From Escherichia coli (lineage in GTDB: Bacteria; Pseudomonadota; Gammaproteobacteria; Enterobacterales; Enterobacteriaceae): a stretch of 64,000 nucleotides of DNA. Under the pieces are notes generated by a model. The model saw only the letters and a list, made by a program, of their open reading frames with translations. It ran no database searches and was not told the DNA's origin. Made by a program: the position numbers and the translations under genes. The DNA lies in the NCBI RefSeq assembly GCF_965641715.1, contig NZ_OZ282453.1, one strand, 5' to 3'. This document shows, one piece after another, positions 9,841-27,583 of this stretch (within the stretch, counting starts at the first letter, position 1; the number at the start of each line of letters is the position of its first letter).

Positions 9841-9865
9841 AAAAAACGCGCCCGAAGGTGCGTTG
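9839..9865. repeat. attL core
   Basis: acaaaaaacgcgcccgaaggTgcgttg; 26/27 identical to 45803..45829. Confidence 0.85.
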
Positions 9866-9866
9866 T

Positions 9867-9912
9867 AAAACCCACTGAATTCAATGTTTTCCCTTTGTTT
9901 TCAGTGGGTTTT
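9867..9912. terminator. 13-bp inverted repeat hairpin downstream of int (candidate bidirectional terminator or P' arm element)
   Basis: aaaacccactgaa (9867-9879) / ttcagtgggtttt (9900-9912); a third aaaacccact copy lies at 9943-9952. Confidence 0.5.
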
Positions 9913-9951
9913 GTTATTGGTGGGGGGTACTGATTACCCTATAAAACCCAC

Positions 9952-10941: not shown

Positions 10942-11007
10942 TGGCAAGCCCTCCGGTGAAACGAGGAAAGACATTTCCAGTTTGTAAAACGTAAGAATAA
11001 TAAAGGG

Positions 11008-11310
11008 TTAACCAATTTTCCTTTCGGATGGGGGTAAATCCGTTGGTTCTTGCCCATAGTGTGCGAGAGCCGGAGCTATCTGCCCGGATTCAGGCGCAAT
11101 TTTTCCAGTCATAAACCACAACGCATATTTCTCAAATCTGGGGTTGTTTAGTATTTGCTCAATTACTTCAGCATTAGGGATAGTTTTACCGCTTTCATAT
11201 CTCCACAGAGCATCACGGTTTAAACCAAGCATTTTTGCTGTATCCGGGAGGCTAGTAAGTCTCTCGCTTTCACGCATGATTTTTATGCGCTCTCCAATAG
11301 TCATACGCAT
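11008..11310 (-). CDS. C: P2 C-type immunity repressor (HTH)
   Basis: KYALWFMTGKIAPESGQIAPALAHYGQ closely matches the remembered P2 C; ~100 aa from ATG 11310 (the ORF-track start 11325 is TTG). Confidence 0.85.
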   Translation of the reverse strand: MRMTIGERIKIMRESERLTSLPDTAKMLGLNRDALWRYESGKTIPNAEVIEQILNNPRFEKYALWFMTGKIAPESGQIAPALAHYGQEPTDLPPSERKIG

Positions 11311-11358
11311 GTTGCAATTCTCCAACGTCTGTATTAATGTTTATACAAATGAGTTTGA

Positions 11359-11390
11359 TTTGGGGCATCCGTCGCAAGAAATACCCCAAA
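11359..11390. promoter_or_regulatory. 10-bp inverted repeat in the C/cox switch region (candidate operator)
   Basis: tttggggcat (11359-11368) / ataccccaaa (11381-11390), 9/10 complementary, 12-bp spacer. Confidence 0.35.
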
Positions 11391-11405
11391 CAGGGAGATT
11401 ATCAC

Positions 11406-11732
11406 ATGAATGAAGAACTATTGAGGGCATTGTTTAAGATCCCAGACCCCATCACCGTCGATGAGTTTTCCCGCCGCACAGGTAAGACCGAATCAGCCGT
11501 AAGAAAGTTGGTAGAGCGTCGACTCATCCCTCTAACTACTGAGCGCGAGGTTTTAGGCGAGGAAGGGAGTTCGCGCCGTCTTCTCATCCTTTGGAATGAG
11601 TGGCTCGAAATGGTCTATGACGCAACGAAACAGCTTCCTCCTGAGCGTAAAGATTGGCGCAATCACTGGCTGAAGAAAGCCAAGAAGCTGGCGGAAGATT
11701 TGGGATTAGGTTTTCTTAATTTTGCTGCATGA
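11406..11732 (+). CDS. Cox/Apl-like early regulator-excisionase (putative)
   Basis: First gene divergent from C; ATG 11406 has a gggag RBS; HTH-like VDEFSRRTGKTESAVRKLVERRLIP resembles the P2 Cox N-terminus. Confidence 0.55.
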   Translation: MNEELLRALFKIPDPITVDEFSRRTGKTESAVRKLVERRLIPLTTEREVLGEEGSSRRLLILWNEWLEMVYDATKQLPPERKDWRNHWLKKAKKLAEDLGLGFLNFAA

Positions 11733-11750
11733 GATGCAGGGAGTTTTGAT

Positions 11751-12092
11751 ATGAAACAGCAACGTAATTCACGCTTTCGTAATGGCGCTGAACGCCACGC
11801 TAACCGTTTCGCTACCAGCGCATCACGCAGCAACATCCGCTACAGCCTGAGTGATACACACGCAACGCCGGATGGCTACCCAGTAAAACAAATCGGCGAG
11901 CATGCCTGGCTGATTGAAAAAGCTGGAATCGTGGTCCACAAATGCCCACGCAATCCGTTTACCGGAAACCGCATTTTTGCATTGAGCTGCGGCGACAATC
12001 AGTTCGGGCAGGATTTCACATTGTACGAAGCGCTACGCACGGTTGATCGTCTGCTCCGCGGACAAAGTTTTATTAAACAGGCTGATTTATAA
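11751..12092 (+). CDS. Hypothetical early-operon protein
   Basis: 113-aa ORF in the early operon. Confidence 0.5.
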   Translation: MKQQRNSRFRNGAERHANRFATSASRSNIRYSLSDTHATPDGYPVKQIGEHAWLIEKAGIVVHKCPRNPFTGNRIFALSCGDNQFGQDFTLYEALRTVDRLLRGQSFIKQADL

Positions 12093-12102
12093 CAGGTGCT
12101 TT

Positions 12103-12390
12103 ATGACCAAAGACCATGCACAAGGTGTATTTATCCGTTTTATTGATTTTCGCGGTGAACTGTTATTACGCGCATCCGCTATTGATGGAGTGGCTCCGGC
12201 GGGTAAAAACGGAGCCGACGAAGCCACTTACGTTTATCTGAACGGCACGCGACTGCTTGTGGAACTTCCGTACCAGACCGTACGAGAAATCATTAGCAAA
12301 GCTGAAAAAGCGCGCCAGGCTAATGGCAATGAACCCTATATCGAAATTATTTGCATGGATTCAGAAGCTGAAATCCAGAAAGCAGATTAA
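12103..12390 (+). CDS. Hypothetical early-operon protein
   Basis: ATG 12103 follows aggtg and the stop of the previous ORF; 95 aa. Confidence 0.5.
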   Translation: MTKDHAQGVFIRFIDFRGELLLRASAIDGVAPAGKNGADEATYVYLNGTRLLVELPYQTVREIISKAEKARQANGNEPYIEIICMDSEAEIQKAD

Positions 12391-12401
12391 AGGGCGTTGC
12401 G

Positions 12402-12644
12402 ATGGGCAAAGAATATAAAACTCTCATTAACAAAGCACTTGAGCGTTTCTATTTTCGCTTAAGTGCATCAGGCGCTCATGCTGAACGTGCTGCCCGTGAC
12501 TCATTGACCAGGGCAATCCGGAGTCTGTATGACGTGGCTTTTTACGCTGATGATCTGGATGCACCTAACGAACTTTCCGAGCTGATCTGTGCCGCAGAAT
12601 GCGGGGAACATATTGAACCGTATAAGCTGGGGAATATCGCATGA
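12402..12644 (+). CDS. Hypothetical early-operon protein
   Basis: 80-aa ORF. Confidence 0.5.
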   Translation: MGKEYKTLINKALERFYFRLSASGAHAERAARDSLTRAIRSLYDVAFYADDLDAPNELSELICAAECGEHIEPYKLGNIA

Positions 12645-12754
12645 GTATATTTATCTCATGGCTTGTTCTGATTATTTCGGTGGTCTGCGCCATTGGGATT
12701 ATGCGAATTATTAATTCAGTGAAAAAGATCGAGCGTTTTTTCTCTGATGAATAA
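12641..12754 (+). CDS. Small hydrophobic peptide, 37 aa (not in the ORF track)
   Basis: ATGA overlap with the upstream stop; MSIFISWLVLIISVVCAIGIMRIINSVKKIERFFSDE has one TM helix and a basic tail. Confidence 0.45.
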   Translation: MSIFISWLVLIISVVCAIGIMRIINSVKKIERFFSDE

Positions 12755-12846
12755 CGATACAAATAAAACATCAAATTAAATAAGAAAACGTGAAAACCAT
12801 CCGTATTAACGGAGGTATTCGCACACGTAAATAATGGAGATATAAA

Positions 12847-13263
12847 ATGAACGCAAAAGAAGAAGGCATTATCGACACATTAAAAAAAATATCAGAAGCG
12901 GAAGATGAAATGGCTAAAGATGACGTGAAGCGTAGCCAACATATGGCAGCACTTCACGCACTGACCATCGCAAAAATCACCGCTGACGCAGCCAAAATTA
13001 TTGAGGAACAGGGCAAAGAAATCGACACTCTTAAAACACAGTCAACAGTTGCAGCCATGAATCCGTCCAGCATTGGACGCCGCATTTACATTCTTGGTTC
13101 GGCAATAATGACGCAATACACCATTATTGCCGAACTGCACGGCAAATACCTGATAACGCCTTACCACACAAAAGAGTCAGAGCTTCTGACAAATCTCCGC
13201 CTGATAGAACGCTCTCAAGCTGTATTCATTGATGACGCGCAACGTGCCGTATTTAACGCATAG
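12847..13263 (+). CDS. Hypothetical protein
   Basis: 138-aa ORF preceded by ggagat. Confidence 0.55.
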   Translation: MNAKEEGIIDTLKKISEAEDEMAKDDVKRSQHMAALHALTIAKITADAAKIIEEQGKEIDTLKTQSTVAAMNPSSIGRRIYILGSAIMTQYTIIAELHGKYLITPYHTKESELLTNLRLIERSQAVFIDDAQRAVFNA

Positions 13264-13286
13264 GGTTACTGGACAAAGGGGGCGCA

Positions 13287-13490
13287 ATGGCAATTAAGCA
13301 TTTTCCCGTCGTTCGCTTTACCTCCAGAGGGCGCGAATACGAGGTCGACGAACGCCTGATTACCACTATCGACAAACATCGTTCGGAAAAGGATGCACAC
13401 CACATCTACCTCACTGACGGCACTTACTTCTGCGCCACCAACGTGGCGCGGGTGAATCTTATCCGACAGGTACAGGAGCCACACAGATGA
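13287..13490 (+). CDS. Hypothetical protein
   Basis: 67-aa ORF; its stop overlaps the next start (ATGA). Confidence 0.5.
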   Translation: MAIKHFPVVRFTSRGREYEVDERLITTIDKHRSEKDAHHIYLTDGTYFCATNVARVNLIRQVQEPHR

Positions 13491-13753
13491 CCATTCTGGA
13501 CTACATCGCTACTCATCCGGGGTGTAGCGGCGGAGAGATCGCCGCAGCACTGAATACTCCAACCACAGCCATTAATGCTGAGTTACGCCAACTTTGGCGC
13601 GGCGGCTTAGTCATCAGAACAAACCGCAGCACAGGTGGTCGCGCTCGCAAAACTGGAGGCCAGGCTTCTTACCACGTAAACCCGATGCCGTTCGGGTGTA
13701 GCAATCCACTTACTCACATGTTTAACCAGCTACTGAAGGAAGCCAGAGCATGA
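13487..13753 (+). CDS. Putative winged-helix DNA-binding protein
   Basis: 88 aa; ILDYIATHPGCSGGEIAAALNTPTTAINAELRQLWRGGLV looks like a MarR/wHTH recognition unit. Confidence 0.45.
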   Translation: MTILDYIATHPGCSGGEIAAALNTPTTAINAELRQLWRGGLVIRTNRSTGGRARKTGGQASYHVNPMPFGCSNPLTHMFNQLLKEARA

Positions 13754-14049
13754 GCACCATCAACCACCAGAAGCTACGCGAACTGGCATTTGCCCTGCAA
13801 CGAATGGCAACGCCTCAAAAATTACTGGCATTTCGCGCAATGCTCTCGCCGTCTGCTGTGCTGGCATTGCTGGATGAGCTGGAGCACGCCAGAACCACGG
13901 CTCCTGCCATTCGCCTGACGCTCCATCATGAAATCGCTGATTTCTGCGCGACATTGGAGGCGCCAGGCGAACCGGAAACGCCGGAAGCAATACAGCAAGA
14001 GCCGCTGCAACGCATTGACAAGGTTTTTGATTTTTTTCTGAACCAGTAA
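13750..14049 (+). CDS. Hypothetical protein
   Basis: 99-aa ORF translationally coupled (ATGA) to the upstream ORF. Confidence 0.5.
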   Translation: MSTINHQKLRELAFALQRMATPQKLLAFRAMLSPSAVLALLDELEHARTTAPAIRLTLHHEIADFCATLEAPGEPETPEAIQQEPLQRIDKVFDFFLNQ

Positions 14050-14141
14050 GAAACCAGAGCATGCACACACAAAAAAACCGCTTGCCATGCCGCAATCAGT
14101 CAGGTTACATTTTCGCTGCACCTCATAAAACGGGTGCCGGG

Positions 14142-14166
14142 TTTCGCAGCCTGCTGACAACCAAAG
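14142..14166 (+). promoter_or_regulatory. Upstream target boxes a1 (tttcgcagc) and b1 (caaccaaag) for the c4-like RNA
   Basis: Complementary to 14287-14293 and 14272-14280 respectively. Confidence 0.5.
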
Positions 14167-14232
14167 CGCACAACCGCGCCAGCGGTTTTTTTGTGCGTAC
14201 TGTATTGCCACGTTTTTTTCGCGTCAGAATTA

Positions 14233-14314
14233 TGGCGGGGCGTACGGGGCCGACTTCGGTCGGGCCGGGTTCTTTGGTTGCCGGTACTGCGAACCCCGTA
14301 CGTCTCGCCACCCA
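14233..14314 (+). ncRNA. P1 c4-like antisense regulatory RNA (~80 nt)
   Basis: 16-17 bp terminal helix (14233-14249 / 14294-14310) followed by ACCCA; UUCG-tetraloop hairpin 14250-14263; second hairpin whose 12-nt loop carries b'; single-stranded a' 14287-14293. Confidence 0.55.
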
Positions 14315-14317
14315 CAG

Positions 14318-14364
14318 TTTCGCAGCTCTGGATGGTGAGTTTTCAAAACTTACAACCAAAGAGG
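14318..14364 (+). promoter_or_regulatory. Downstream target boxes a2 (14318-14326) and b2 (14353-14362); b2 overlaps the SD aagagg of ORF 14372
   Basis: caaccaaaga is a perfect 10-nt complement of loop 14271-14280. Confidence 0.5.
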
Positions 14365-14371
14365 CCACACC

Positions 14372-14602
14372 ATGGCAAACCGCAAACAGCACCGCGCTAT
14401 CGCGGAGCGTCGTCACATCCAGACTGAAATCAACCGCAGACTTTCCCGCGCATTCCGCGTCGCTAAAATCATGCACATCAATATGCTGCATGAGCGTAGC
14501 TGCGAACTTTCAAACCTCTACTCATCCGCTGTTTTCAGCTATCTGGCGGATGATCTGCGCGAGCTTCAACAGCTCATCCAGCAGCAAAACAAACTCCATT
14601 AA
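14372..14602 (+). CDS. Hypothetical 76-aa protein in the position of P1 icd (first gene under c4-like control)
   Basis: ATG with SD aagagg; basic helical protein; the similarity to icd is positional only. Confidence 0.5.
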   Translation: MANRKQHRAIAERRHIQTEINRRLSRAFRVAKIMHINMLHERSCELSNLYSSAVFSYLADDLRELQQLIQQQNKLH

Positions 14603-14674
14603 TTCCTGTTCCGGGCCTTTCCTGCACCTTGCGGCGGGAGGCCTTCGCACATCTGTAACAAGAGGATTGCCGCA

Positions 14675-15040
14675 ATGATTCTCGCCAACGACTTTCTTGA
14701 ATACCTGCTCAACACAGAGCGTGATCTTGCCGCTCGCGTACGTGATCGTTATGACATGTATCTGAAATCCCTGCCTGTACCGCAGCTCGCTGACGGAAAG
14801 ATTGTTATTGATGGTCGCTACATGATTGACAGCCACGAGGGAAATTACAGGCTTTACCGCATTGAAGGTGGCACCCCGTCCGTTATTGGCATTTACCAGC
14901 GCCCATCCTCTGCAATCGTCGATGTGATTGCCGACAGCATCCGCATCACACATCGCCATGCCGACACAGAAGACACCGTGCTGGAAATTCAGCGGCTGGC
15001 TGCCGTCTGCCGCGACACCCTGAATGGCATGACGAAGTAA
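14675..15040 (+). CDS. Hypothetical protein
   Basis: 121-aa ORF immediately upstream of gene A. Confidence 0.55.
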   Translation: MILANDFLEYLLNTERDLAARVRDRYDMYLKSLPVPQLADGKIVIDGRYMIDSHEGNYRLYRIEGGTPSVIGIYQRPSSAIVDVIADSIRITHRHADTEDTVLEIQRLAAVCRDTLNGMTK

Positions 15041-15046
15041 ATCACT

Positions 15047-17869
15047 ATGACGGCAGAGTACATCAGGGACTGGCAACAACCGCGCCACGCAGTGGGACGT
15101 GAAGGAACGGGGATCCCCGTTCCTGAATCCGCGCTTTCCTCCTGGCTGGATGCCTACCGGGCAGAGAACGAGCGCCGCCAGGAAATGGCTGATGCGGCGT
15201 TCTCCGCCACGCCGCTGGGCAACCTGATTAATAAAAGCCTGGATGCACAGGAAAAACAGGACAAAACCATCACACTGGCAGGAGACGCCAGAAAACAGGT
15301 ACGCGGTGCGGTGGATGAAGCCATGGCCTCGCTGCGCCTGCTGCCGTCCTATCTGCGCGATCCGCTTATTCGCCACCTCTCCTTCCTGCGCAAAAAACAG
15401 GAAGCCGATCGCCGGAAAGGCAAAAAGAGCTGGCAGGCTGAACGCTACGCGCGCGGAACCCTGCGCAAAATATTCGAACGTCTGGACCGCACCGACCACC
15501 GCTGGCTGACACCGGGTTATCGCTCCCTTGCCGGACGCGAACGCCTGGATGATTTGCTTTACCTGCCGCAGCTCAACAAGCACCAGATACAGACGCTGGC
15601 CACCATGACGGCGGCGATGTTCAGCAGCACCTTCGAAAAACTCTGCGATGGCTTTGGCGCGACTGATGGCGAGCTGACCATGGATGTAACGCTGAAGGCG
15701 TATCAGATGCTGGCCCGCATGGCGTTACACCTGCACGCCATGCCTCCGCATTATGATGCACTGACAACAGACAAAGACCGGAGGAACGAACCGGACACGG
15801 AGCTGCTGCCGGGCGCAATCCTTCGCCTGACCTGTGCGGAATGGTGGAAACGCAAACTGTGGCTGTTACGTTGCGAGTGGCGGGAAGAACAACTCCGCGC
15901 CGCCTGTCTGGTTTCCAGAAAAACATCGCCCTATCTGAGCCAGGACGCGTTAAGCGAGTTTCGCGCACAGCGCGAGAAAACACGCGATTTCCTGAAAAGT
16001 TTCATGCTGGAAAACGAAGACGGGTTCACGATTGATCTCGAGACGGTGTATTACGCGGGAGTAAGTAACCCGGTTCATCGTAAGGCAGAAATGATGGCCA
16101 CCATGAAGGGGCTGGAACTTCTGGCCGAAGCCCGTGGCGACAAAGCGGTGTTTCTGACTGTCACCTGCCCGTCAAAATACCACGCCACAACAGAGAACGG
16201 TCATCCGAATCCCAAATGGAACGGGGCCACCATGCGCGACTCCAGCGATTACCTGGTTAACACGTTTTTTGCGGCGGTCCGCAAGAAACTGAACCGCGAC
16301 GGCCTGCGCTGGTATGGCATCCGCACGGTGGAGCCTCACCATGACGGCACCGTGCACTGGCATATGATGGTCTTTGCTCATCCGGAAGAAATCGACACCA
16401 TTGTGTCCCACACCCGCGATATTGCCATTCAGGAAGATCGTCACGAGCTGGGTGATGATATTACCCCACGCTTTAAGGCGGAGTACGTCGACGGCTCAAA
16501 AGGCACACCGACCAGCTACATCGCCACCTACATCGGGAAAAACCTGGACAGCCGTGCCGTGGATGGCATCGACCCGAAAACGGGCAAGCCACGCGTTGAC
16601 CACGAAACCGGAAAATCAATGGCCGAGAGCGTGGAACGCGCCATCGGCTGGGCGCGCCTTCATCGGGTCCGCCAGTTCCAGTTCTTTGGCATCCCCTCCC
16701 GTCAGGTGTGGCGTGAACTGCGCCGCCTTGCCAGCCAGATGGCTCGCAACCCGGAAGGACCGCAACGGCTGAAGGATGACGCAATGGACGCGGTTCTTGC
16801 TGCCGCTGATGCCGGATGTTTTGCCACCTACATAGAGAAACAGGGCGGCGTACTTGTTCCACGCAAGGACTACCTGATTCGCACCGCCTACGACCTCGCA
16901 GATGAGCTGAACGATTACGGTGAACAGAGCGTACAGATTTACGGGATCTGGTCACCGCTCATCGGGGAGTCTTCCCGCGTATGCACGCATCCGGACAACT
17001 GGAAGCTGGTAAGACGCAAACCGGAAGCGGAAGACAGCGCCCGCGAAAATGGTTTTGACCTTCAGGGCGGCCCTGCCGCCCCTTGGACTCGTGGCAATAA
17101 CTGTCCCCGTGTACAGGAAACAGGCAACAGCGGGACAGAACAGTCGAAAGAACGGCCAGCACCGTGGCCGCAGCTTCCTGACGGCGTTGACGTGAACGAA
17201 TGGATGCGCTCACTGAAACGGCACGAACGCCGGGCGCTGATGCGTTCGCTTCGTGACAAACAGGCAAAAAACAGCAGTGATGAAATGCAGAGCTGGACAC
17301 AGAGCCGCAAACAGCCACGGCCTTTGCCTGATAACCACGAATTACTCGCTAAAGAATGGCGGGAGTCTGCTGAATCTCTCGGCCTGCATATCGGTGAACA
17401 ACAGATGCAGCACCTGTTACGGGGCGGCAGTCTGTACGTTGACGGCAGCATCATTGCACCGCAGGGATTTGAAATTGTACGCAAACCGGATACCCGCCCG
17501 GACAGCCGAATCACGCAGCTCTGGCAGCGCCTGAGCCGTAATCATGGCGTAAGCAGCACGGAGATCCGCCATAACCCGGTCGCCAGCTATCTGGCACAGC
17601 TGGGGGCATCAGACCCTGAAGCCGCCGCACGCCTGGCATCCACACTTCAGCAGGACCAGAACACCATGAAAACACCCGTTACCGTGCTTTCTGACATGCT
17701 GCGCGCCATCCGCGACGCAGAGCACGCACAGAGAATCAGTGAAACCACTGAACGCGCCAGCCGCAAAGCAGACCTGCTGCGGGGTGGCCTGACCAGTGGA
17801 AACAAAAAACAGACAGAAACGGGATTCACAAATCCCATAAATGAGCAAAAAACGTGCCGCGATATATGA
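15047..17869 (+). CDS. A: P2 gpA-type rolling-circle replication initiator (HUH endonuclease) with a long C-terminal extension
   Basis: HUH-like VHWHMMVF and YIATYIGK tyrosine motif; 940 aa versus ~760 aa remembered for P2 A. Confidence 0.85.
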   Translation: MTAEYIRDWQQPRHAVGREGTGIPVPESALSSWLDAYRAENERRQEMADAAFSATPLGNLINKSLDAQEKQDKTITLAGDARKQVRGAVDEAMASLRLLPSYLRDPLIRHLSFLRKKQEADRRKGKKSWQAERYARGTLRKIFERLDRTDHRWLTPGYRSLAGRERLDDLLYLPQLNKHQIQTLATMTAAMFSSTFEKLCDGFGATDGELTMDVTLKAYQMLARMALHLHAMPPHYDALTTDKDRRNEPDTELLPGAILRLTCAEWWKRKLWLLRCEWREEQLRAACLVSRKTSPYLSQDALSEFRAQREKTRDFLKSFMLENEDGFTIDLETVYYAGVSNPVHRKAEMMATMKGLELLAEARGDKAVFLTVTCPSKYHATTENGHPNPKWNGATMRDSSDYLVNTFFAAVRKKLNRDGLRWYGIRTVEPHHDGTVHWHMMVFAHPEEIDTIVSHTRDIAIQEDRHELGDDITPRFKAEYVDGSKGTPTSYIATYIGKNLDSRAVDGIDPKTGKPRVDHETGKSMAESVERAIGWARLHRVRQFQFFGIPSRQVWRELRRLASQMARNPEGPQRLKDDAMDAVLAAADAGCFATYIEKQGGVLVPRKDYLIRTAYDLADELNDYGEQSVQIYGIWSPLIGESSRVCTHPDNWKLVRRKPEAEDSARENGFDLQGGPAAPWTRGNNCPRVQETGNSGTEQSKERPAPWPQLPDGVDVNEWMRSLKRHERRALMRSLRDKQAKNSSDEMQSWTQSRKQPRPLPDNHELLAKEWRESAESLGLHIGEQQMQHLLRGGSLYVDGSIIAPQGFEIVRKPDTRPDSRITQLWQRLSRNHGVSSTEIRHNPVASYLAQLGASDPEAAARLASTLQQDQNTMKTPVTVLSDMLRAIRDAEHAQRISETTERASRKADLLRGGLTSGNKKQTETGFTNPINEQKTCRDI

Positions 17870-17917
17870 AGCGCGCACAAAACAGGCAAAAGCGGGATTT
17901 AAAAATCCTGTAAACGA
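17802..17917 (+). repeat. Two ~42-bp imperfect direct repeats, each with a palindrome (candidate parC / ParR operator)
   Basis: acaaaaaacagacagaaacGGGATTCACAAATCCCataaatga (17802-17844) versus acaaaacaggcaaaagcGGGATTTAAAAATCCtgtaaacga (17877-17917). Confidence 0.35.
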
Positions 17918-17945
17918 TTAATTAATCAACATAAGGAAAAGCGAC

Positions 17946-18905
17946 ATGAAAATTTGTATCGACGACGGCTCCACCAACATCAAGCTGGCATGGACTGAGA
18001 ACGGCGAACGCCGCAACGCCATCAGCCCGAACAGCTTCAAGTCGGAATGGTCTGCGCCGTTCGGTGGCTCGCAGCCCGCGAACTACATGCTTGATGGCGT
18101 GCGCTATGGTTTTGATCCGGTCAGCGATCGCTTTGTCCAGACGACCGACACGCAATACCAGTACAGCGATGTGAATGTCATTGCCATTCATCACGCGCTG
18201 GTCAAATCAGGCATCACGCCACAGGAGGTGGATGTGGTTGTCACCCTGCCATTGAGCGAGTATTTCGACACAAACGCACAGCCGGACATGGCCAACATCA
18301 GCCGCAAAAAAGCGAACGTTATGCGCCCGGTGGAGTACCAGAACGGCGAAACATTCACTATCCGTAACGTACGGGTTATGCCTGAATCCATTCCGGCTGG
18401 CTTTAAAGCACTGGCTGACATGAGTCCGCTTGAATCCCTGCTGATTGTGGATTTGGGCGGAACCACACTGGATGTGGCAAAGGTTCAGGGGCAACTGGCA
18501 GGTATCAGCCAGGTGTTTTGCGATCCACACGTAGGCGTTTCCCTGATGGCCGATGCCGTACTGTCGGTGATGGCCACTAACGGTATGCGTATCAGTCACC
18601 ACATCGCCAATACCATTATCGAACATCGCCATGATGAAGCCTGGTTGCGCCAGCACATCCACAATGACGCGCATTACGCCAGCCTGATGGCGGTTATTCG
18701 TGAAAAGGAAGAAACACTGAAACAACGCGTGATCCGCGCGCTGGCGGTTTTTTCGGGTTACGGGCGGGTGATGGTTGTCGGTGGCGGGGCGGAGATTGTG
18801 GCACCCGCTATCCGCGAAGCCTGCGGAGTTAATGCGACTTTCATCGCGGACGGGGTGCCACAGTTTGCTCTGGTTAATGGGCTGTACGCAATGGACAAGG
18901 AGTAA
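17946..18905 (+). CDS. parM: ParM/StbA actin-like plasmid-segregation ATPase
   Basis: Full-length similarity to remembered R1 ParM (IDDGSTNIKL, ISPNSFK, YSDVNVIAIHHAL, RKKAN, VMPESIPAG, DLGGTTLD, GGGAE). Confidence 0.85.
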   Translation: MKICIDDGSTNIKLAWTENGERRNAISPNSFKSEWSAPFGGSQPANYMLDGVRYGFDPVSDRFVQTTDTQYQYSDVNVIAIHHALVKSGITPQEVDVVVTLPLSEYFDTNAQPDMANISRKKANVMRPVEYQNGETFTIRNVRVMPESIPAGFKALADMSPLESLLIVDLGGTTLDVAKVQGQLAGISQVFCDPHVGVSLMADAVLSVMATNGMRISHHIANTIIEHRHDEAWLRQHIHNDAHYASLMAVIREKEETLKQRVIRALAVFSGYGRVMVVGGGAEIVAPAIREACGVNATFIADGVPQFALVNGLYAMDKE

Positions 18906-18909
18906 ACCA

Positions 18910-19221
18910 ATGACGACTCCAACCAGACGGATAAGTTTCTATCTGAAGCCCGCCGCCGTCAAGAACGAAGGTGAAGCATGCGCCTGGCTGGACAGCCTTA
19001 CACCAGAAGCGCGCAAAAGCGGCCAACGCGTGGCTTTTCTGGCCGGGCTGGCACTTCTGAAAATGAATCCGGCAGAGGCTTACCGACTGGCTGCATGGGC
19101 TGATGATGAAGCGTTATCAGTGACACAAACCAGGACAGAACGCCCCGCGTCACAGCCAGTATCAACCGCACAGATAACCAGTCAGATGGCCGGAAATATC
19201 CGGGCGTTATTTCCCGAATAA
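18910..19221 (+). CDS. parR: ParR-like centromere-binding adaptor
   Basis: ATG 18910 follows aaggag, 4 nt after the parM stop; ISFYLKP...LDSLTPEARKSGQRVAFLAGLAL and C-terminal IRALFPE resemble R1 ParR. Confidence 0.7.
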   Translation: MTTPTRRISFYLKPAAVKNEGEACAWLDSLTPEARKSGQRVAFLAGLALLKMNPAEAYRLAAWADDEALSVTQTRTERPASQPVSTAQITSQMAGNIRALFPE

Positions 19222-19284
19222 CACAACATCAGGGCGCATCCGCCCTGATGACTTTAACCCGGGAACATAAACAAGGGGGACACA

Positions 19285-19620
19285 ATGCAACGCATTGACA
19301 GAGAAAAAGCGCAGCGACTGATTGAGCGGATGGAAGCGCTGGCGAAAGAAGAAAATGTCAACATCCAAAAAATAGCTGAATGTGGCCAGATAGTTCTTCG
19401 TCGTGAAAAAGACCTCAAACAACTGATGTCTGGCGAAACCAGCAAAACATGGACTTCAGGTGAGGAGACGATTTATTGCAGCTTCTGCAATAAATCCCAG
19501 TACGAAGTCACAAAGGTGATTGCCGGACCGTCTGTTTACATCTGCAATGAGTGCGTTGATTTGTGCAATGAAGTTATCAGGAGAGAAGTGACAGACCATG
19601 AAGAAAAAACGCATGAATGA
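19285..19620 (+). CDS. Orphan ClpX N-terminal zinc-binding-domain (zf-C4_ClpX) protein with no AAA+ module
   Basis: Residues ~60-101, [39 protein letters not shown], versus E. coli Clp[40 protein letters not shown]. Confidence 0.85.
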
Positions 19621-19786
19621 CGAATTTGACGGCTTTTAATTTTATCGGGGCGCACTGTCGCCCTGCATGGAGAAAAACAATAAAAAAGATGAATAACTGC
19701 TCATGTCAGACGCGCTGCGGGCAAGTCTGGCACCCTGCCCTGTCTCCGCAAAGGCTGTTGTCTTAACACGACAGAGTATGCCAGCA

Positions 19787-20194
19787 TTAAATATAATCTT
19801 CTTCGTAGTCGCTGATTAATTCATTGCCATAATCAGACAGCAATTTCAAAGCAAAGGTAACTTCCTCAAGGGTAGCTATCCCCATTGCTGAAAACACCGT
19901 TAATTTAACCAGCAGCAGGGAGTTTGAAAGTTCGGAAGAGTTCATCATTAAAAATATTGATGCAGCCTGAAAAGCTGTGCGTTTATTCCCATCATGAAAG
20001 GCATGAGCCTTGGCTATACCAATCAAATACATAGCAGCCAGAGCATGAATATCATCAACCCCTTCATAGTAGTGTAGTGTCCTGACGCGATTTAAAGCAC
20101 CTTCAAGTAGCCCGTCATTGGCATTTCCGCTCTGGGGTAAAGTTTCAGCATGGATACGTTCTACTTGTTCTTTTGACAAAAACACTATGTCCAT
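19787..20194 (-). CDS. doc: Doc (death-on-curing) Fic-fold toxin
   Basis: Doc signature HAFHDGNKRTAF; 135 aa; start overlaps the antitoxin stop (TGATG). Confidence 0.85.
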   Translation of the reverse strand: MDIVFLSKEQVERIHAETLPQSGNANDGLLEGALNRVRTLHYYEGVDDIHALAAMYLIGIAKAHAFHDGNKRTAFQAASIFLMMNSSELSNSLLLVKLTVFSAMGIATLEEVTFALKLLSDYGNELISDYEEDYI

Positions 20195-20550
20195 CAGTTA
20201 TCCTCAAGCTTTTTAATGATATCCGCATGTTTTTCTCTTGTACGCTTCATTGCATCTTCAAAAGACAATCCTTTTTTTCTCTGTGCGACAAGAGCTGGAT
20301 GACGTTTTTCCAGATCTCTCACTGCATTTATTAAGAGTGGTTGCTTCATTTTGTTTATTTGATCCCGCAGTTTTTTGGTTTTGCCAAGGACAGCCCGTAT
20401 TTCAGGACTAAGATCAGAACCAGCAAGAACAACATCCTTCCCTCCCTGCGCCGTGATAACGACACTGCCACCGGAAGAAAGGTAATCCAGAATTTCACTC
20501 AGGTTCTCACGAAATTCATCATCAGTTACAGTTTTCATATTCATTTCCAT
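20194..20550 (-). CDS. Phd/YefM-type antitoxin (extended C-terminus)
   Basis: Upstream of and coupled to doc; N-terminus MKTVTDDEFRENLSEILDYLSSGGSVVIT is Phd/YefM-like; the true start may be 20538. Confidence 0.7.
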   Translation of the reverse strand: MEMNMKTVTDDEFRENLSEILDYLSSGGSVVITAQGGKDVVLAGSDLSPEIRAVLGKTKKLRDQINKMKQPLLINAVRDLEKRHPALVAQRKKGLSFEDAMKRTREKHADIIKKLEDN

Positions 20551-20624
20551 TATGCACGCCCATAACGTAAGTATAACGGCTTGTTGGGCAGTAATAACAC
20601 CGCCATATTTTCATTTTATACACC

Positions 20625-20650
20625 GCACAATAGTGCACAAATTTGCACAA
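20625..20650 (-). promoter_or_regulatory. 3 x TTGTGC (GCACAA on the plus strand) at exact 10-bp phasing next to TATAAAAT: candidate phd-doc promoter/operator
   Basis: gcacaa at 20625, 20635 and 20645; minus strand reads TTGTGCaaatTTGTGCactaTTGTGCggtgTATAAAAT. Confidence 0.45.
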
Positions 20651-20746
20651 TTTTTTTGAACAACTTTTTACCCTTCCGGCCCGCGTGGCGACTGGATCCG
20701 TCAAGGATCCGTGCGTGCACAAAAAAACGCGTTTTTTCTGCGCGCA

Positions 20747-20765
20747 GGTGACGGGGGAACAGCCC
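20747..20765. other. Candidate cos cohesive-end sequence
   Basis: GGTGACGGGGGAACAGCCC versus remembered P2 cos GGCGAGGCGGGGAAAGCAC (about 12/19), ~310 bp beyond the end of Q as in P2. Confidence 0.3.
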
Positions 20766-21074
20766 GCGTTTCAGGGGGTAAATAGCATTCCCTGAACGAT
20801 GTCGCAGCGACACAACAGAATGGCTGTATTTCTCACACTGAGCGTGAAAAAGGCGTGAGGGCTTTTGATTTGATGGGGTGACAGATAAGGCCGTCAAAAT
20901 CGCACTGAGGCGGCAAGAACATGCAGTCAACGCGGTGGGATTGCGTAAGAGCCTGACCGTCGATGATGGCGATAAGCTGGAAGACGTCGTGAAATTATCT
21001 GATTGATACAGGAGCTGGAGAGTCGGGGCATAAATTTTTTATGCCCCGGCGAAGCAGCAGACAAGCGAAGCGCG

Positions 21075-22121
21075 TCAGGATGTGGGCTGGGTGTCCAGCA
21101 GTGCGTAAGGGTTAAAGCGGATCACCTCTTCGCCAAGCCAGTCATTGATATGCTTCATGGCCTCCATGACGGGCATCAGCTCGTTAATTGCGTAAACCCG
21201 CGCTGCCTTCTCCACATCACCAAACGCACTTTTTTCGCCCGGCATCGCCCCCATCAGTTGCGGCGGAACGCGGTGCGCAGCCAGCACATCATCACGGGAT
21301 GCCGCCTTAACATTCATGAACTCATCCTTTGCGGTGATCTGCTGGAACGGCAAAATTTGCACACCTTCTTTGCCCCCGTTGGGCGCGTGAATGAGCACGT
21401 TTTTAAATGCACCACCACCACGCGCACCCTGTAGCGTTTCCTTCAGGGAGTCCATGCTTTCGCGGTTTACCTGCGCTGCACCGATGTAGATGATGCACCC
21501 GGCGTGGGATCCATTGTCGTAGTACAGTTTTCTGAACATGTCCGCCGAATGAGACAGGCTGGCCGAGAGTAATGCGCCAAGATATTCCGGCATGCCGTAA
21601 ATTTCCTGGTTAATGTCCGGATTCATCAGGTGGCACACTTTGCCAGGGCGAAACTGAAACGCGTCCTTGCCATCCTGCACATACCACCATGATTCAAGAT
21701 CGCTTCCGCGTCGCATGTATTTCGCCAGTGCGTGCCGTAATTTAAGTGGTTCGCCGAGCATATTGCTCCGAAGCTCAAGGAATGCGTTACCGAACACAAA
21801 CCAGTCCAGCGCCAGCGCCGAGAAATCCTGCCGGGAAAGCAGCGGGTGCGGGATGTAGCAACCGAGCAATACATTGCGCTTAAAGTAAAGCGCAGACTGA
21901 TGCCAGGACGTTTGCCGGGCGGCTCTTGCCAGACCGTACCAGTCCACCGGGGTTTCATACCACCGCCCGTTATCAGCACAGTACATATTGTCCAGCAGGT
22001 CATGCCCGGTCAGGCGGTAAGGACCATCAAATGTGAATGCACTGAGCGACGATTCTTTCCTGAGCGCATCAGCGAGATCAATGCGTGAACTCATGCGCAC
22101 TTTTTTATTTTTTCTGCTCAT
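21075..22121 (-). CDS. Q: Portal protein (P2 gpQ-like)
   Basis: 348-aa ORF upstream-coupled to the terminase gene; P2 Q-P orientation. Confidence 0.85.
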   Translation of the reverse strand: MSRKNKKVRMSSRIDLADALRKESSLSAFTFDGPYRLTGHDLLDNMYCADNGRWYETPVDWYGLARAARQTSWHQSALYFKRNVLLGCYIPHPLLSRQDFSALALDWFVFGNAFLELRSNMLGEPLKLRHALAKYMRRGSDLESWWYVQDGKDAFQFRPGKVCHLMNPDINQEIYGMPEYLGALLSASLSHSADMFRKLYYDNGSHAGCIIYIGAAQVNRESMDSLKETLQGARGGGAFKNVLIHAPNGGKEGVQILPFQQITAKDEFMNVKAASRDDVLAAHRVPPQLMGAMPGEKSAFGDVEKAARVYAINELMPVMEAMKHINDWLGEEVIRFNPYALLDTQPTS

Positions 22122-23872
22122 CAGAACTCCATAACCGTGAAACGCTCGTTTTCTCCTTCGCCGCCAATTGGTTCGTTAATGACAGCAAGCATGGTTGCCC
22201 ACGCAAGGTCGCCGTGGCTGATCCCCCTCGCGCGGTCCGTTTCGTAAGTGATAAAGCCGCCCGGTGTTTTCACCTTACGCACGGCGTTAAAGGCCGCGAC
22301 CAGCTCGCGTTCGGCGCGATCGTATTCCCACCGCCCGGCACGCATTATTTGCAGCATTTTCAGTACCAGCGACCGTTTTGATGACAGCGTGAAGGTGTAC
22401 GGAATAGCGGCAGGGAAAAACCGTTTCACTATCTGATAAACAGCCTCCCCGTTCCCGCCCGTCACATCAATGCCGATGTGTTCCACGTTGTAGCGACACG
22501 TGAACTCTTCAATGACTCTGGCCTGTTCTTCAAACTCCAGCCCCTGAACGCGTCGCGTCTCCACCGTTCGAAAACGGCCACCAGGAACAGCCGGAGGAAC
22601 CACCACGGACACCGCGCCACTGTCGCCGTTTCCACTGCTGCCGTTTGCGTCATACCCAATCCATACCGGACGATTCCCCATCGGGCGGGGAGCAAAAGGT
22701 TTCCAGTCTTTCCAGTCGTCGTATCCGTCAACACCGCAGCCAATCAGGATATTCAGGTTAAATGCCGATTCCCCTTCGCGGACAAACTCACACATATAGA
22801 GATTGCGGAACTCGTCTTCGGTGTTTTCATCACGAATTTCATCAATATCGGTGTGTTTCCAGCCGTGATTAACCACATCTTCCAGCGTGACAATTTGCCG
22901 CCACGTCCGGTCGGGGCAGATAAGCCCGTTATGCAGCGTTTTCCAGTCCACAGAAAAACGCTGGCGTTTATGCGCGGCCTTTTTCTCGTTCCAGCGGTCG
23001 CCGTTCCAGTAGACGTATGCCTCGTGCGTTTCGGTTGATGGCGTGGAGAAGTAGGTGCGTCGCAGCCCGCTGAGGGTTGCCATAGCGCCAGCCACCTTGC
23101 GCAGTTCAGCAAAGCGACTGACCCAGAAAAATTCATCAAAATAAAAATTGCCTGTGTAGGACTGTGCCGTCGCAGCAGAAGTGCCGAGAAAATGCAGCTC
23201 TGCGCCGTTGGAGAGGATGATTTTATCGCCCCCTTTCAGCTCCACATCAACTTCAGATGCAGCCTTCTGAATAATGCTTTTAAACTGGAACGCCTGACGA
23301 CGCGACGCAGACAAAAAAATCTGGTTACGCTGGTAAGGTTGCGCCACATCGTCACGCAGCGCCATCAGCAGTGCTTCCTGTGCAAAATACCAGGTCGCCC
23401 CAATCTGTCGGGATTTCAGGATCATCCTGTTACGTATCCCGGCTTCCCTGCAAAGGGTCAGGGAGTCAAACCAGCCCCGCTGATGCCACTCCAGCCTGCT
23501 GATGATTTTTTCCCGCAGTGCGGCAATCTGTTCCGGCGTGAAATGATTTTTAAGCTTTTTCGCCCGGCCTTTCTTTCCTGTGGCCGTCGCATCCGGCTGG
23601 CCATCATGCAGTTTTTTAAGCTGCCGGGTCAGCAGGTCTATTTCCTTAAAGTCACCGCCTGTTTTATTCTGTTTTTCAGTAAGCTGGATGAGGCGCGCAT
23701 CGATGGACTGCGTGACACGCTGCACGGGTGGCGTTTCATCCCACTGGTCGCGTTTTTTCCACGCATAAATCGTGTTCGGGTTTATTCCCATCAGACGTGA
23801 TATTTCAGCGGGCGGATAACCCTGCCAGTAAAGTTGTCGCGCACGCTGGCGCACAAAAGCGTCCTGAATCAT
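22121..23872 (-). CDS. P: Terminase large (ATPase) subunit (P2 gpP-like)
   Basis: 583 aa; N-terminal HTH (YPPAEISRLMGINPNTIYAWKKRDQWDE) and terminase ATPase/nuclease body; gggggag RBS. Confidence 0.88.
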   Translation of the reverse strand: MIQDAFVRQRARQLYWQGYPPAEISRLMGINPNTIYAWKKRDQWDETPPVQRVTQSIDARLIQLTEKQNKTGGDFKEIDLLTRQLKKLHDGQPDATATGKKGRAKKLKNHFTPEQIAALREKIISRLEWHQRGWFDSLTLCREAGIRNRMILKSRQIGATWYFAQEALLMALRDDVAQPYQRNQIFLSASRRQAFQFKSIIQKAASEVDVELKGGDKIILSNGAELHFLGTSAATAQSYTGNFYFDEFFWVSRFAELRKVAGAMATLSGLRRTYFSTPSTETHEAYVYWNGDRWNEKKAAHKRQRFSVDWKTLHNGLICPDRTWRQIVTLEDVVNHGWKHTDIDEIRDENTEDEFRNLYMCEFVREGESAFNLNILIGCGVDGYDDWKDWKPFAPRPMGNRPVWIGYDANGSSGNGDSGAVSVVVPPAVPGGRFRTVETRRVQGLEFEEQARVIEEFTCRYNVEHIGIDVTGGNGEAVYQIVKRFFPAAIPYTFTLSSKRSLVLKMLQIMRAGRWEYDRAERELVAAFNAVRKVKTPGGFITYETDRARGISHGDLAWATMLAVINEPIGGEGENERFTVMEF

Positions 23873-24026
23873 TGCTCCCCCTGAGTAATTACAGGAAGAT
23901 TACCCGCGCGCGAAACCGTTCTCCTTAACCCCCTGTTCTGGCCATTTTCTTACAACAAAAGCCCTTTGTATCAGCCTGTTACGCTTTGCCATCATGACTG
24001 AAGAACCAGTCAGAGGGGCAAAAACT

Positions 24027-24863: not shown

Positions 24864-24886
24864 TAAGACAAAGGAGCAAAATTTTT

Positions 24887-27581: not shown

Positions 27582-27583
27582 TA

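What the first reader, a model, noticed from the sequence alone, without database searches (positions are those of the whole stretch)
17802..19221. R1-type parM-parR partition locus, with a candidate parC, inside an integrated P2-like prophage
- The 319-aa ORF is colinear over its full length with the R1 ParM/StbA actin-like ATPase as I remember it. All nucleotide-binding blocks are conserved.
- The coupled 103-aa ORF resembles ParR at both its N-terminal DNA-binding segment and its C-terminal ParM-interacting tail (..ALFPE).
- Immediately upstream lie two ~42-bp imperfect direct repeats, 75 bp apart. Each is centred on a palindrome (GGGATTCACAAATCCC at 17821-17836; GGGATTTAAAAATCC at 17894-17908).
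- The first repeat lies inside the last codons of replication gene A.

P2-family phages are maintained by integration, so a type II plasmid partition system in the A-to-cos hot spot (tin/old in P2) is unexpected. It suggests an episomal lifestyle option, a plasmid-derived moron, or a repurposed filament system.
Basis: partly seen in the sequence, partly recalled or inferred. Interest (0 to 1): 0.66.

Follow-up and report, generated by a model that had tools for sequence, protein, structure and literature searches.

The report
ParMRC partition cassette in P2-like prophage
A plasmid-style DNA-segregation gene pair (ParM/ParR) with a likely two-site centromere does sit just after the replication gene of an integrated P2-family prophage, but it is an already annotated, conserved feature of P88-like phages present in about a quarter of complete E. 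coli genomes, and its role has not been tested.

Summary
Window 17946-18905 encodes a full-length ParM: Pfam E 4e-82 and 3.5e-68, and 47% identity to R1-type ParM with all ATP-binding blocks intact. Window 18910-19221 encodes a ParR of Pfam PF10784. Two 42-nt repeats lie upstream, 73 nt apart, each with a palindromic core. The element is an integrated 36-kb P88-like (Xuanwuvirus) prophage with att cores at 9839 and 45803.

It is not new. PGAP annotates both genes. The parC-parM segment occurs in 1302 of 5426 complete E. coli genomes (1439 chromosomal places, 2 on plasmids). Rousset et al. 2022 already noted a putative partition system in about a quarter of P2-like phages.

What I add:
- ParM homologues from P2-like prophages at 55-100% identity group together in a rough tree, separate from the plasmid and ICE ParMs sampled (53% or less).
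- Purifying selection on ParM is strong (dN/dS 0.044).
- The repeats are conserved across relatives while the spacer between them diverges.
- No sigma-70 promoter is recognisable, so parMR is probably transcribed with gene A.

I infer that it partitions the transient circular phage DNA after infection or excision, as SrpMRC does for SXT/R391 and AlpAC for CGP3. I do not think it maintains a stable plasmid prophage. Function is untested.

The parts
15047..17869 (+). Replication gene A (940 aa, P2 gpA-type rolling-circle initiator). Its last codons contain parC repeat 1.
   Evidence: Pfam Phage_GPA E 2.3e-131. PGAP calls it 'replication endonuclease' in the 99.9%-identical RM10740 copy.
17803..17844 (+). 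Candidate parC repeat unit 1: an A/C-rich arm plus the palindromic core GGGATTCACAAATCCC (17821-17836).
   Evidence: family D1. It keeps 35 of 42 positions against the Hafnia relative, while the spacer keeps 15 of 31. Both sites are present in 86 of 87 related loci.
17845..17875 (+). 31-nt spacer between the two repeat units. It holds the gene A stop codon (17867-17869) and is poorly conserved.
   Evidence: 15 of 31 positions identical to Hafnia. No sigma-70-like promoter found.
17876..17917 (+). Candidate parC repeat unit 2, with core GGGATTTAAAAATCCT (17894-17909).
   Evidence: The arms GGGATT/AATCC are conserved while the central 4 nt vary (TAAA, TCAG, TGAA, CCAG) across 87 loci. The spacing to unit 1 is 73 nt in 83 of 86 loci.
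17933..17937 (+). Shine-Dalgarno sequence AAGGA of parM, 8 nt before the ATG.
   Evidence: Read from the sequence. Conserved in all aligned relatives.
17946..18905 (+). parM: actin-like segregation ATPase, 319 aa.
   Evidence: dN/dS 0.044 against the Hafnia relative at dS 0.66.
18910..19221 (+). parR: centromere-binding adaptor, 103 aa. It has an invariant N-terminal RRISFYLKP segment, a variable linker, and an invariant C-terminal N-I-x-x-x-F-P tail.
   Evidence: PF10784 E 1.6e-24. Family alignment. The low-confidence AF2 model shows helices at 20-61, a disordered stretch at 66-86 and a C-terminal helix at 87-100.
19227..19250 (.). GC-rich hairpin after parR, at the border with the variable cargo region. 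It may be a terminator.
   Evidence: flags it as terminator-like on the minus strand. There is no T-run on the plus strand.
19285..20550 (.). Variable hot-spot cargo in this copy. It is not part of the par module. It comprises a ClpX zinc-finger-only protein (19285-19620, +), Doc toxin (19787-20194, -) and Phd antitoxin (20194-20550, -).
   Evidence: This stretch is present in only 17 of 5426 genomes together with the rest of the query. Other loci carry different cargo here.
9839..45822 (.). The integrated P88-like prophage that carries the module. The att core is repeated at 9839-9858 and 45803-45822.
   Evidence: P88, PhiR44_2, P884B11 and phiSM match at 96-98%.

Best explanation
This is a functional type II (ParMRC) DNA-segregation cassette. 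It is a long-standing, lineage-conserved module of a clade of P2-like phages, not recent plasmid cargo.

**Proposed mechanism (inferred).**
- ParR dimers bind, through the invariant N-terminal RRISFYLKP segment, to two palindromic GGG-N10-CCC cores. The cores sit 73 bp apart, about 7 helical turns, at the end of gene A.
- The invariant C-terminal N-I-x-x-x-F-P tail of ParR captures the growing ends of ParM-ATP filaments.
- The filaments push sister phage circles apart.

**When it acts (inferred).**
- The cassette follows gene A with no terminator and no recognisable promoter of its own. It is therefore probably expressed with the early operon.
- That means it is on only while the phage genome is an extrachromosomal, gpA-replicated circle: after infection and before integration, or after excision.
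- In that state it would spread the few circles to both daughter cells or organise replication. This would raise lysogen yield or replication efficiency and prevent loss.
- It would not maintain a stable plasmid prophage.

**Shown here:** gene identities, conservation, selection, repeat anatomy and chromosomal residence.

**Inferred:** ParR-parC binding, the timing of expression, and the benefit to the phage.
For: **Gene identity.** ParM and ParR belong to their families, and the ParM catalytic motifs are intact.

**Selection and conservation.**
- Against the Hafnia relative, ParM is 94% identical at dS 0.66 with dN/dS 0.044. gpA is only 62.5% identical in the same comparison.
- ParR keeps invariant N- and C-terminal segments around a free-drifting linker in at least 8 allele clusters.

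**Repeats.**
- The two repeat units are conserved (35 of 42 positions each) while the spacer is not (15 of 31).
- Both sites are present in 86 of 87 loci, with 73 +/- 1 nt spacing.
- Distant P2-like loci whose ParR has the TRR[IV]SFYL segment again carry two GGG-N10-CCC sites 72-73 bp apart.
- Loci whose ParR has NRKISFYL carry a different inverted repeat instead.

**Synteny and phylogeny.**
- The A-parM-parR-cargo-portal order is kept at 55-62% ParM identity in Plesiomonas, Serratia, Enterobacter and Hafnia.
- In a rough neighbour-joining tree the prophage ParMs group together without any of the labelled plasmid or ICE sequences.

**Expression context.** There is no plus-strand terminator between A and parM, and no sigma-70 match. 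The best score was 2.6, against a median best of 4.3 per 170 nt across the prophage.

**Residence.** 1439 chromosomal places against 2 on plasmids.

**Experimental precedents.**
- SrpMRC stabilises the excised, rolling-circle-replicating SXT/R391 element (PMC4489591).
- AlpAC of the integrated prophage CGP3 tethers circular phage DNA and is needed for efficient replication (PMC4446434).
Against: - There is no experimental evidence for this phage family. No paper in the searched library tests it.
- ParR binding to the palindromes is inferred from position and conservation only.
- Site 1 lies in coding sequence, so part of its conservation may be coding constraint. It carries a non-palindromic variant (GGGACT...) in many loci.
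- A centromere with only two sites is smaller than the R1 or pSK41 centromeres.
- The absence of a promoter rests on simple consensus scoring.
- One 34,461-bp circular record is a whole phage of this type, so an episomal state cannot be excluded.
Confidence: 0.6

Rival explanations
1. Facultative plasmid prophage. The cassette lets P88-like phages persist as low-copy plasmids when they do not integrate. This is the speculation of Rousset et al. and the first reader's 'episomal lifestyle option'.
For: - It is a complete partition cassette.
- The same prophage also carries plasmid-type addiction genes: Hok/gef at 44363-44503 and Phd/Doc.
- One 34,461-bp circular 'plasmid' record is an entire phage of this type.
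- Rousset 2022 raises the idea.
Against: - 1439 chromosomal places against 2 on plasmids in complete E. coli genomes.
- int, att and a P2-type C/Cox switch are intact.
- The only replication function seen near the module is gpA. In P2-type phages gpA sits in the repressor-controlled early operon (established P2 biology), so an immune lysogen should not replicate the circle.
- No promoter specific to par was found.
- The hot-spot segment tested from the circular record is 99.9% identical to a chromosomally integrated copy in another strain from the same strain series. The circle may therefore be an excised or induced form.
Confidence: 0.15
2. Hot-spot cargo that benefits the host or prophage in the integrated state. 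Examples would be exclusion or destabilisation of incoming plasmids or phages with a related centromere, or another defence-like role. The ParM filament would be repurposed.
For: - It lies in the A-to-Q region that Rousset et al. define as the P2 anti-phage hot spot.
- Bona fide variable cargo lies immediately downstream.
Against: - Unlike the cargo, parC-parM-parR is held in place and under strong purifying selection across deep divergence.
- All three parts of a canonical segregation machine are co-conserved.
- No true plasmid in PLSDB encodes a ParR close enough to share this centromere. Only prophage-bearing records hit.
Confidence: 0.1
3. The palindromes are not a centromere. They could be RNA hairpins or attenuators in the A-parM transcript, or binding sites for another phage or host protein. 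ParR would then bind elsewhere or not at all.
For: - Each core can form a 6-bp stem with a 4-nt loop.
- The loop of site 2 varies while the arms are kept. That pattern also fits a hairpin.
- Only two sites are present.
Against: - There are no compensatory changes. The common GGGACT variant of site 1 breaks the stem without compensation.
- No T-run follows either core on the plus strand.
- The position directly upstream of parM is where type II centromeres lie, as in R1, pSK41 and srpC.
- The repeat type changes together with the ParR N-terminal type in distant loci.
- The strict 73-nt phasing suits protein binding on one face of the helix.
Confidence: 0.12
4. Decaying relic of a plasmid-phage recombination event, with no current function.
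For: None beyond the unusual location.
Against: - dN/dS is 0.04-0.22 for parM in all comparisons.
- All 48 distinct ParM sequences recovered from the 87 loci where parM could be read are full length, 317-319 aa.
- Motifs are intact.
Confidence: 0.02

Closest known systems
ParMRC (stb) of plasmid R1 and IncF plasmids
   Same: - Gene order is parC-parM-parR.
- ParM is 47% identical over the full length with the same ATP-binding blocks.
- ParR is in the same Pfam family, PF10784.
- The CATAAGGA ribosome-binding context resembles that of the R1-type plasmid pHK08.
   Different: - It sits on an integrated phage.
- ParR is only about 28% identical and is undetectable by tblastn.
- The centromere is two 42-nt units with 16-bp palindromic cores 73 nt apart. 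R1 is known to have ten 11-bp A/C-rich iterons flanking a promoter (established knowledge; the A/C-rich region is visible).
- No embedded promoter is recognisable.
SrpMRC of SXT/R391 integrative conjugative elements (Carraro et al. 2015, PMC4489591)
   Same: - It is a type II partition system in an element that normally sits integrated in the chromosome.
- That element replicates as a circle by a rolling-circle (HUH-type) initiator when excised.
- Its centromere is small, with four repeats in direct and inverted orientation upstream of the ParM gene.
- It is co-resident with a toxin-antitoxin system.
- It is expressed only when the element is activated.
   Different: - It is an ICE, not a phage.
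- SrpM is only distantly related to R1 ParM, and SrpR has no recognisable ParR domain.
- Its function is experimentally shown, whereas here it is inferred.
AlpAC/alpS of Corynebacterium glutamicum prophage CGP3 (Donovan et al. 2015, PMC4446434)
   Same: - An integrated prophage encodes an actin-like ATPase plus an adaptor.
- The adaptor binds sites upstream of the operon.
- The system acts on the circular phage DNA after induction and is needed for efficient replication.
   Different: - The actin-like family is distant and the host is Gram-positive.
- It is not an R1-family ParM/ParR pair.
Partition systems of phage-plasmids (P1 ParABS, N15 SopAB)
   Same: A temperate phage encodes an active DNA partition system.
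   Different: - Those are type I (Walker ATPase) systems.
- They sit on phages whose prophage is a plasmid with a plasmid-type replicon (established knowledge).
- The prophage here is integrated.
'Putative plasmid partitioning system' of P2-like hot spots (Rousset et al. 2022, PMC9122126), and ParM/partition genes annotated in phage P88, P884B11 and phiSM records
   Same: It is very likely the same locus. P88-type records match the window at 96-98% and already carry these annotations.
   Different: - The literature treats it as hot-spot cargo and mentions it in one sentence.
- The centromere candidate, the grouping of phage ParMs apart from plasmid ones, and the selection data do not appear in the papers I could search.

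Membership tests
Type II (ParMRC) partition system | Actin-fold ATPase of the ParM/StbA family | tested here: met
   StbA_N E 4e-82 and ParM C-terminal domain 3.5e-68. R1 ParM structures E 7.5e-94, aligned end to end.
Type II (ParMRC) partition system | Intact nucleotide-binding and hydrolysis motifs in ParM | tested here: met
   DDGSTNIK, MPESIPAG, DLGGTTLD and GGGAE are all aligned and identical or conservative against R1-type ParM.
Type II (ParMRC) partition system | Small adaptor ParR encoded immediately downstream of parM, with an N-terminal DNA-binding domain of the ParR family | tested here: met
   The gap between the genes is 4 nt. PF10784 E 1.6e-24. R1-type and IncI1 ParR hit the same model. 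The ribbon-helix-helix fold itself is not confirmed, because the AF2 monomer model has pLDDT 57 and there is no PDB sequence hit.
Type II (ParMRC) partition system | ParR C-terminal tail that binds ParM | tested here: inconclusive
   N-I-x-x-x-F-P is invariant in 16 diverse prophage ParRs despite a free-drifting linker. The N-x-x-x-L-F-P tail is shared with distant P2-like ParRs and an IncI1 ParR. Binding was not tested.
Type II (ParMRC) partition system | Repeated cis sites (centromere) directly upstream of parM | tested here: met
   Two 42-nt units are present, with none of 300 shuffles as good. They are conserved across relatives. They occur in 86 of 87 loci with 73 +/- 1 nt spacing.
Type II (ParMRC) partition system | ParR binds the centromere, and the cassette stabilises an unstable replicon | not testable with these tools
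   This needs EMSA or footprinting and plasmid stabilisation assays.
R1-type parC architecture | Two sets of five 11-bp direct iterons flanking the par promoter | tested here: not met
   The R1-type upstream region is A/C-rich. Here there are two palindromic cores and no sigma-70 match.
Phage-plasmid (P1/N15/SSU5-like) | Prophage maintained extrachromosomally | tested here: not met
   The att cores flank the element in the chromosome. There are 1439 chromosomal places against 2 on plasmids in complete genomes. A single 34-kb circular record exists.
Phage-plasmid (P1/N15/SSU5-like) | Plasmid-type replicon (Rep/iteron or similar) in addition to lytic replication | not tested
   Only gpA was identified near the module. 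The whole prophage was not scanned systematically for a second replicon.
Variable cargo of the P2 A-to-Q hot spot | Presence or absence and identity vary between otherwise similar phages | tested here: not met
   parC-parM is 96-98% identical in all 14 matching phage records, and its position is kept down to 55% ParM identity. Variability starts inside or after parR.

The most novel reading that the evidence does not exclude
P88-like P2-family phages may have a regulated, actively partitioned episomal stage. In this stage a gpA-replicated circle would be held in dividing cells by ParMRC and backed by Hok and other toxin-antitoxin modules. That would make them integrative phages with a facultative carrier or plasmid state, in roughly a quarter of E. 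coli genomes. It would also show that a two-site palindromic centromere is enough for ParM-driven segregation.
Probability: 0.12. Interest if true: 0.7.

Novelty: already known. Interest (0 to 1): 0.3.

Why it matters
Very common E. coli prophages carry a complete, strongly constrained plasmid-type segregation machine, and nobody has tested what it does for an integrating phage. If it partitions transient phage circles, active partition would extend from ICEs (SXT/R391) and one actinobacterial prophage to a major enterobacterial phage family. It could also help explain how efficiently these phages establish or keep lysogeny. The compact two-site centromere would be a convenient minimal model for ParR-parC assembly. 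As a sequence finding it is ordinary, because the genes are routinely annotated and already noted in the literature.

Tried and rejected
- **ParR against PDB sequences.** No hit, even at E<=1.
- **AlphaFold2 model of ParR from a 16-sequence alignment.** pLDDT was 57, too weak for a fold search, so none was run.
- **ParR tblastn against 72,556 plasmids.** It found only records that carry the prophage itself, so no plasmid donor could be named.
- **Genome-contig scan with ParM.** It gave only 3 near-identical loci. Distant relatives had to be reached through the protein search and contig look-ups.
- **Promoter search.** Both the consensus scan and my own weight-matrix scan found nothing convincing in 17780-17950. 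I therefore dropped an R1-like autoregulated promoter inside parC as the default.
- **Host of the 34-kb circular record.** I tried to learn whether its host strain also has an integrated copy. That strain did not appear among the E. coli genome hits. The best match was a 99.9% identical integrated copy in a different strain, so the question stays open.
- **ParR allele type against the central bases of site 2.** No correlation.
- **Rfam scan of the prophage.** It gave nothing in the par region.
- **Literature searches for a functional study of ParM in P2-like, P88 or Xuanwuvirus phages.** None found.
- **Relic or pseudogene reading.** Rejected on dN/dS.

Full report
**1. The observation**

- Window 17946-18905 encodes a 319-aa protein. 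It matches both Pfam ParM domains: StbA_N at E 4e-82 and the ParM C-terminal domain at 3.5e-68.
- It aligns end to end with the crystallised R1 ParM (E 7.5e-94, residues 2-316 against 2-318).
- It is 47% identical (151 of 318, two gaps) to the ParM of the IncF plasmid pHK08. The phosphate-1, catalytic, phosphate-2 and adenosine blocks are all conserved.
- Four nucleotides after its stop codon, 18910-19221 encodes a 103-aa protein. The ATG is at 18910, not 18911. It matches PF10784 Plasmid_stab_B (E 1.6e-24). The R1-type and IncI1 ParR proteins hit the same model.

Two 42-nt direct repeats lie upstream, at 17803-17844 and 17876-17917.
- They share 33 of 42 positions and start 73 nt apart.
- None of 300 dinucleotide shuffles of the region gave a repeat that good; the maximum was 27 of 42.
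- Each unit has a palindromic core: GGGATTCACAAATCCC and GGGATTTAAAAATCCT.
- The shared motif occurs nowhere else in the 64-kb window.
- Repeat 1 lies inside gene A, which is 15047-17869 (Phage_GPA E 2.3e-131).

**2. What the element is**

The window comes from an E. coli chromosome.
- The region is 99.9% identical to strain RM10740.
- The prophage is integrated between pheA and the raiA-bamD-rluD region. A tyrosine integrase lies at 9952-10974. A 20-nt att core is repeated at 9839 and 45803, about 36 kb apart.
- It belongs to the P88-like P2-family phages. P88, PhiR44_2, Xuanwuvirus P884B11, Citrobacter phiSM and others match at 96-98% across the end of gene A, parM and the start of parR.

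**3. Already known**

- PGAP annotates the two genes as 'plasmid segregation protein ParM' and 'plasmid partitioning/stability family protein'. The phage records carry similar labels.
- The parC-parM segment alone (17800-18905) is found in 1302 of 5426 complete E. coli genomes. That is 1439 places on chromosomes and 2 on plasmids.
- Rousset et al. [quoted passage not shown]
- The phiSM paper lists the gene as a 'fitness' factor (PMC6456863).
- I found no paper that tests the function.

**4. Not a recent plasmid-derived moron**

- Among 72,556 plasmids, ParM hits fall into two groups. Six records are at 95-99% identity; the six plasmid records matched at that level in the DNA search all show a replication endonuclease and/or ParM of this prophage under the match. 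Everything else is below 60%, and the best true plasmids listed are at about 52.6%.
- ParR has no tblastn hit on any true plasmid.
- ParM homologues at 55-62% identity were examined in Plesiomonas, Serratia, Enterobacter and a second Hafnia lineage. All four sit in the same place, in the order gpA-parM-parR-variable cargo-portal, in P2-like prophages.
- The three homologues examined at 53% or lower sit next to plasmid Rep3 genes or conjugation genes.
- In a rough neighbour-joining tree, the prophage ParMs form a clade of 17 of 108 tips that contains no plasmid- or ICE-labelled sequence. No bootstrap was run.
- Selection is strong. Against the Hafnia relative L009, ParM is 94% identical at dS 0.66 (dN/dS 0.044). 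gpA is only 62.5% identical and ParR 74%.
- All 48 distinct ParM sequences recovered from the 87 loci where parM could be read are full length, 317-319 aa.

**5. ParR anatomy**

- Sixteen diverse prophage ParRs, down to 43% identity, share an invariant N-terminal RRISFYLKP segment and conserved helices. They also share a freely varying linker (about residues 66-93) and an invariant C-terminal N-I-x-x-x-F-P.
- At least eight allele clusters below 80% identity coexist with nearly identical ParM and parC.
- Nucleotide homology between many phages breaks at about window 18964, inside parR. The parR 3' half therefore travels with the neighbouring variable region.
- An N-x-x-x-L-F-P tail also ends the ParRs of the distant P2-like loci and of an IncI1 plasmid. 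R1 ParR ends KKNAMKLIN.
- The low-confidence AF2 model shows helices, a disordered linker and a C-terminal helix. This fits the known ParR plan of a DNA-binding head, a flexible linker and a ParM-binding tail (established knowledge of R1 ParR). It does not prove that plan.

**6. The parC candidate**

- Between the window and the Hafnia relative, each repeat unit keeps 35 of 42 positions. The 31-nt spacer keeps 15 of 31, and the preceding gene A sequence keeps 27 of 43.
- In Hafnia the gene A stop codon lies in the centre of core 1.
- Across 87 loci, 86 carry both cores. Spacing is 73 nt in 83 loci, 74 in 2 and 72 in 1. One locus (L035) has a single hybrid unit, as expected from recombination between the repeats.
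- The arms of core 2 are constant while its central four bases vary (TAAA, TCAG, TGAA, CCAG). This variation does not track ParR allele type.
- Core 1, which is coding, often carries GGGACT, and this breaks the palindrome.
- In the distant loci there is coarse co-variation. Where ParR begins TRR[IV]SFYL (Plesiomonas, Hafnia), there are again two GGG-N10-CCC sites 72-73 bp apart. Where it begins NRKISFYL (Serratia, Enterobacter), the upstream region holds a 14-20-nt inverted repeat with 26-28 nt between the arms.
- This supports the repeats as the cognate cis site of ParR, but binding is not shown.
- The architecture differs from the A/C-rich upstream region of R1-type plasmids.

**7. Expression context**

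- No plus-strand terminator-like site lies between gene A and parM.
- Neither the consensus scan nor a weight-matrix scan found a sigma-70 promoter in 17780-17950. The best score was 2.6, against a median best of 4.3 per 170-nt window across the prophage.
- I therefore infer that parMR is read through from the early operon together with gene A. It would be on when the phage is extrachromosomal and replicating, and off under immunity. This is an inference from weak negative evidence.

**8. How it most likely works**

P2-type replication yields monomeric circles from a gpA nick (established P2 biology). These are the kind of substrate a ParMRC machine moves.

Two experimentally studied systems are functional analogues.
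- SrpMRC of SXT/R391 ICEs stabilises the excised form of an element that is normally integrated. That excised form is replicated by a rolling-circle mechanism. Its centromere has four small repeats (PMC4489591).
- AlpAC of the integrated prophage CGP3 tethers circular phage DNA to actin-like filaments and is needed for efficient replication (PMC4446434).

I therefore favour a role in partitioning or positioning the transient phage circles after infection or excision (confidence about 0.6).

The rivals are:
- **Stable plasmid prophage.** It is disfavoured by the 1439:2 chromosomal bias, the intact int and att, and the early-operon position of gpA. It cannot be excluded. One 34,461-bp circular record is a whole phage of this type. 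The hot-spot segment I tested from it is 99.9% identical to an integrated copy in another strain.
- **Defence-like or exclusion cargo role.** It is disfavoured by the fixed position and the co-conservation of all three parts.
- **The palindromes are RNA hairpins or sites for another protein.** It is not excluded.

**9. Verdict**

The finding is real and correctly identified, but it is already annotated and already noted in the literature. What this analysis adds is the grouping of phage ParMs apart from plasmid ones, the strong constraint on ParM, the conserved phased two-site centromere candidate, the lack of a promoter, and the ICE and CGP3 analogies. The biological role remains an open and readily testable question.

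Noticed in passing
window 14118-14315 (+): Rfam matches to isrK (14118-14192, 65.9 bits) and C4 antisense RNA (14228-14315, 87.1 bits) lie directly upstream of a 76-aa 'Derepression' family protein (14372-14602). This is a P1/P7-style antisense control of an antirepressor inside a P2-like prophage.
   Followed up: partly
window 44363-44503 (+): A 46-aa Hok/gef family toxin ORF (PF01848, E 2.5e-08) lies next to the Ogr/Delta-like zinc-finger gene (43911-44171). No Sok or hok RNA reached the Rfam gathering threshold. Related phage records annotate a 'MokW-like host killing protein' here. A plasmid R1-type killer module is thus co-resident with the R1-type par module.
   Followed up: partly
window 19285-19620 (+): A 111-aa protein consists of an N-terminal region plus a ClpX C4 zinc-finger domain only (E 3.1e-17), with no AAA+ module. 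It recurs next to different cargo in other P88-like prophages. It could interfere with ClpX substrate or adaptor recognition. In this copy it sits beside Phd/Doc, and the P1 Phd antitoxin is a ClpXP substrate (established knowledge).
   Followed up: no
window 19787-20550 (-): A Phd/Doc toxin-antitoxin pair (Doc TIGR01550 E 2.3e-14; Phd just below the Pfam cut-off) forms the variable hot-spot cargo. The full query including this cargo is found in only 17 of 5426 complete E. coli genomes.
   Followed up: partly
window 18964 onward (inside parR), and loci L005, L012: parR is mosaic. Nucleotide homology between P88-like phages often ends about 55 nt into parR. At least eight ParR allele clusters (52-98% identity) sit behind ParM that is at least 96% identical, apart from three 94%-identical Hafnia copies. 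dS between alleles is 0.9-1.4. The hot-spot recombination boundary seems to lie within parR.
   Followed up: partly
locus L035 (IMG/VR UViG_2657245439_000011), upstream of parM: One of 87 loci has lost exactly one 73-nt repeat interval. This leaves a single hybrid core fused to the end of gene A. It is a natural one-site variant that could be compared experimentally.
   Followed up: no
locus L004 (NZ_CP148288.1, 34,461-bp circular record): A complete P88-like phage genome, with int, is deposited as a circular 'plasmid' of a cat E. coli isolate. The hot-spot segment I tested from it is 99.9% identical to a copy integrated in the chromosome of a human isolate from the same strain series, Z1323HEC0067. 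Whether the circle is a maintained episome or induced phage DNA is unknown.
   Followed up: partly
window 44744-45701 (+): A Com-like zinc-ribbon ORF (PF10122, E 1.1e-11) overlaps the start of an N6/N4 DNA methylase gene (E 3.2e-33) at the right end of the prophage, next to attR. This resembles the Mu com-mom arrangement.
   Followed up: no
locus L006 (NZ_JBQPOM010000071.1, labelled Vagococcus sp.): A 226-kb contig labelled as Vagococcus (a Firmicute) carries a ParM 97% identical to the E. coli prophage ParM, together with gpA. This is probably contamination or mislabelling of that assembly.
   Followed up: no
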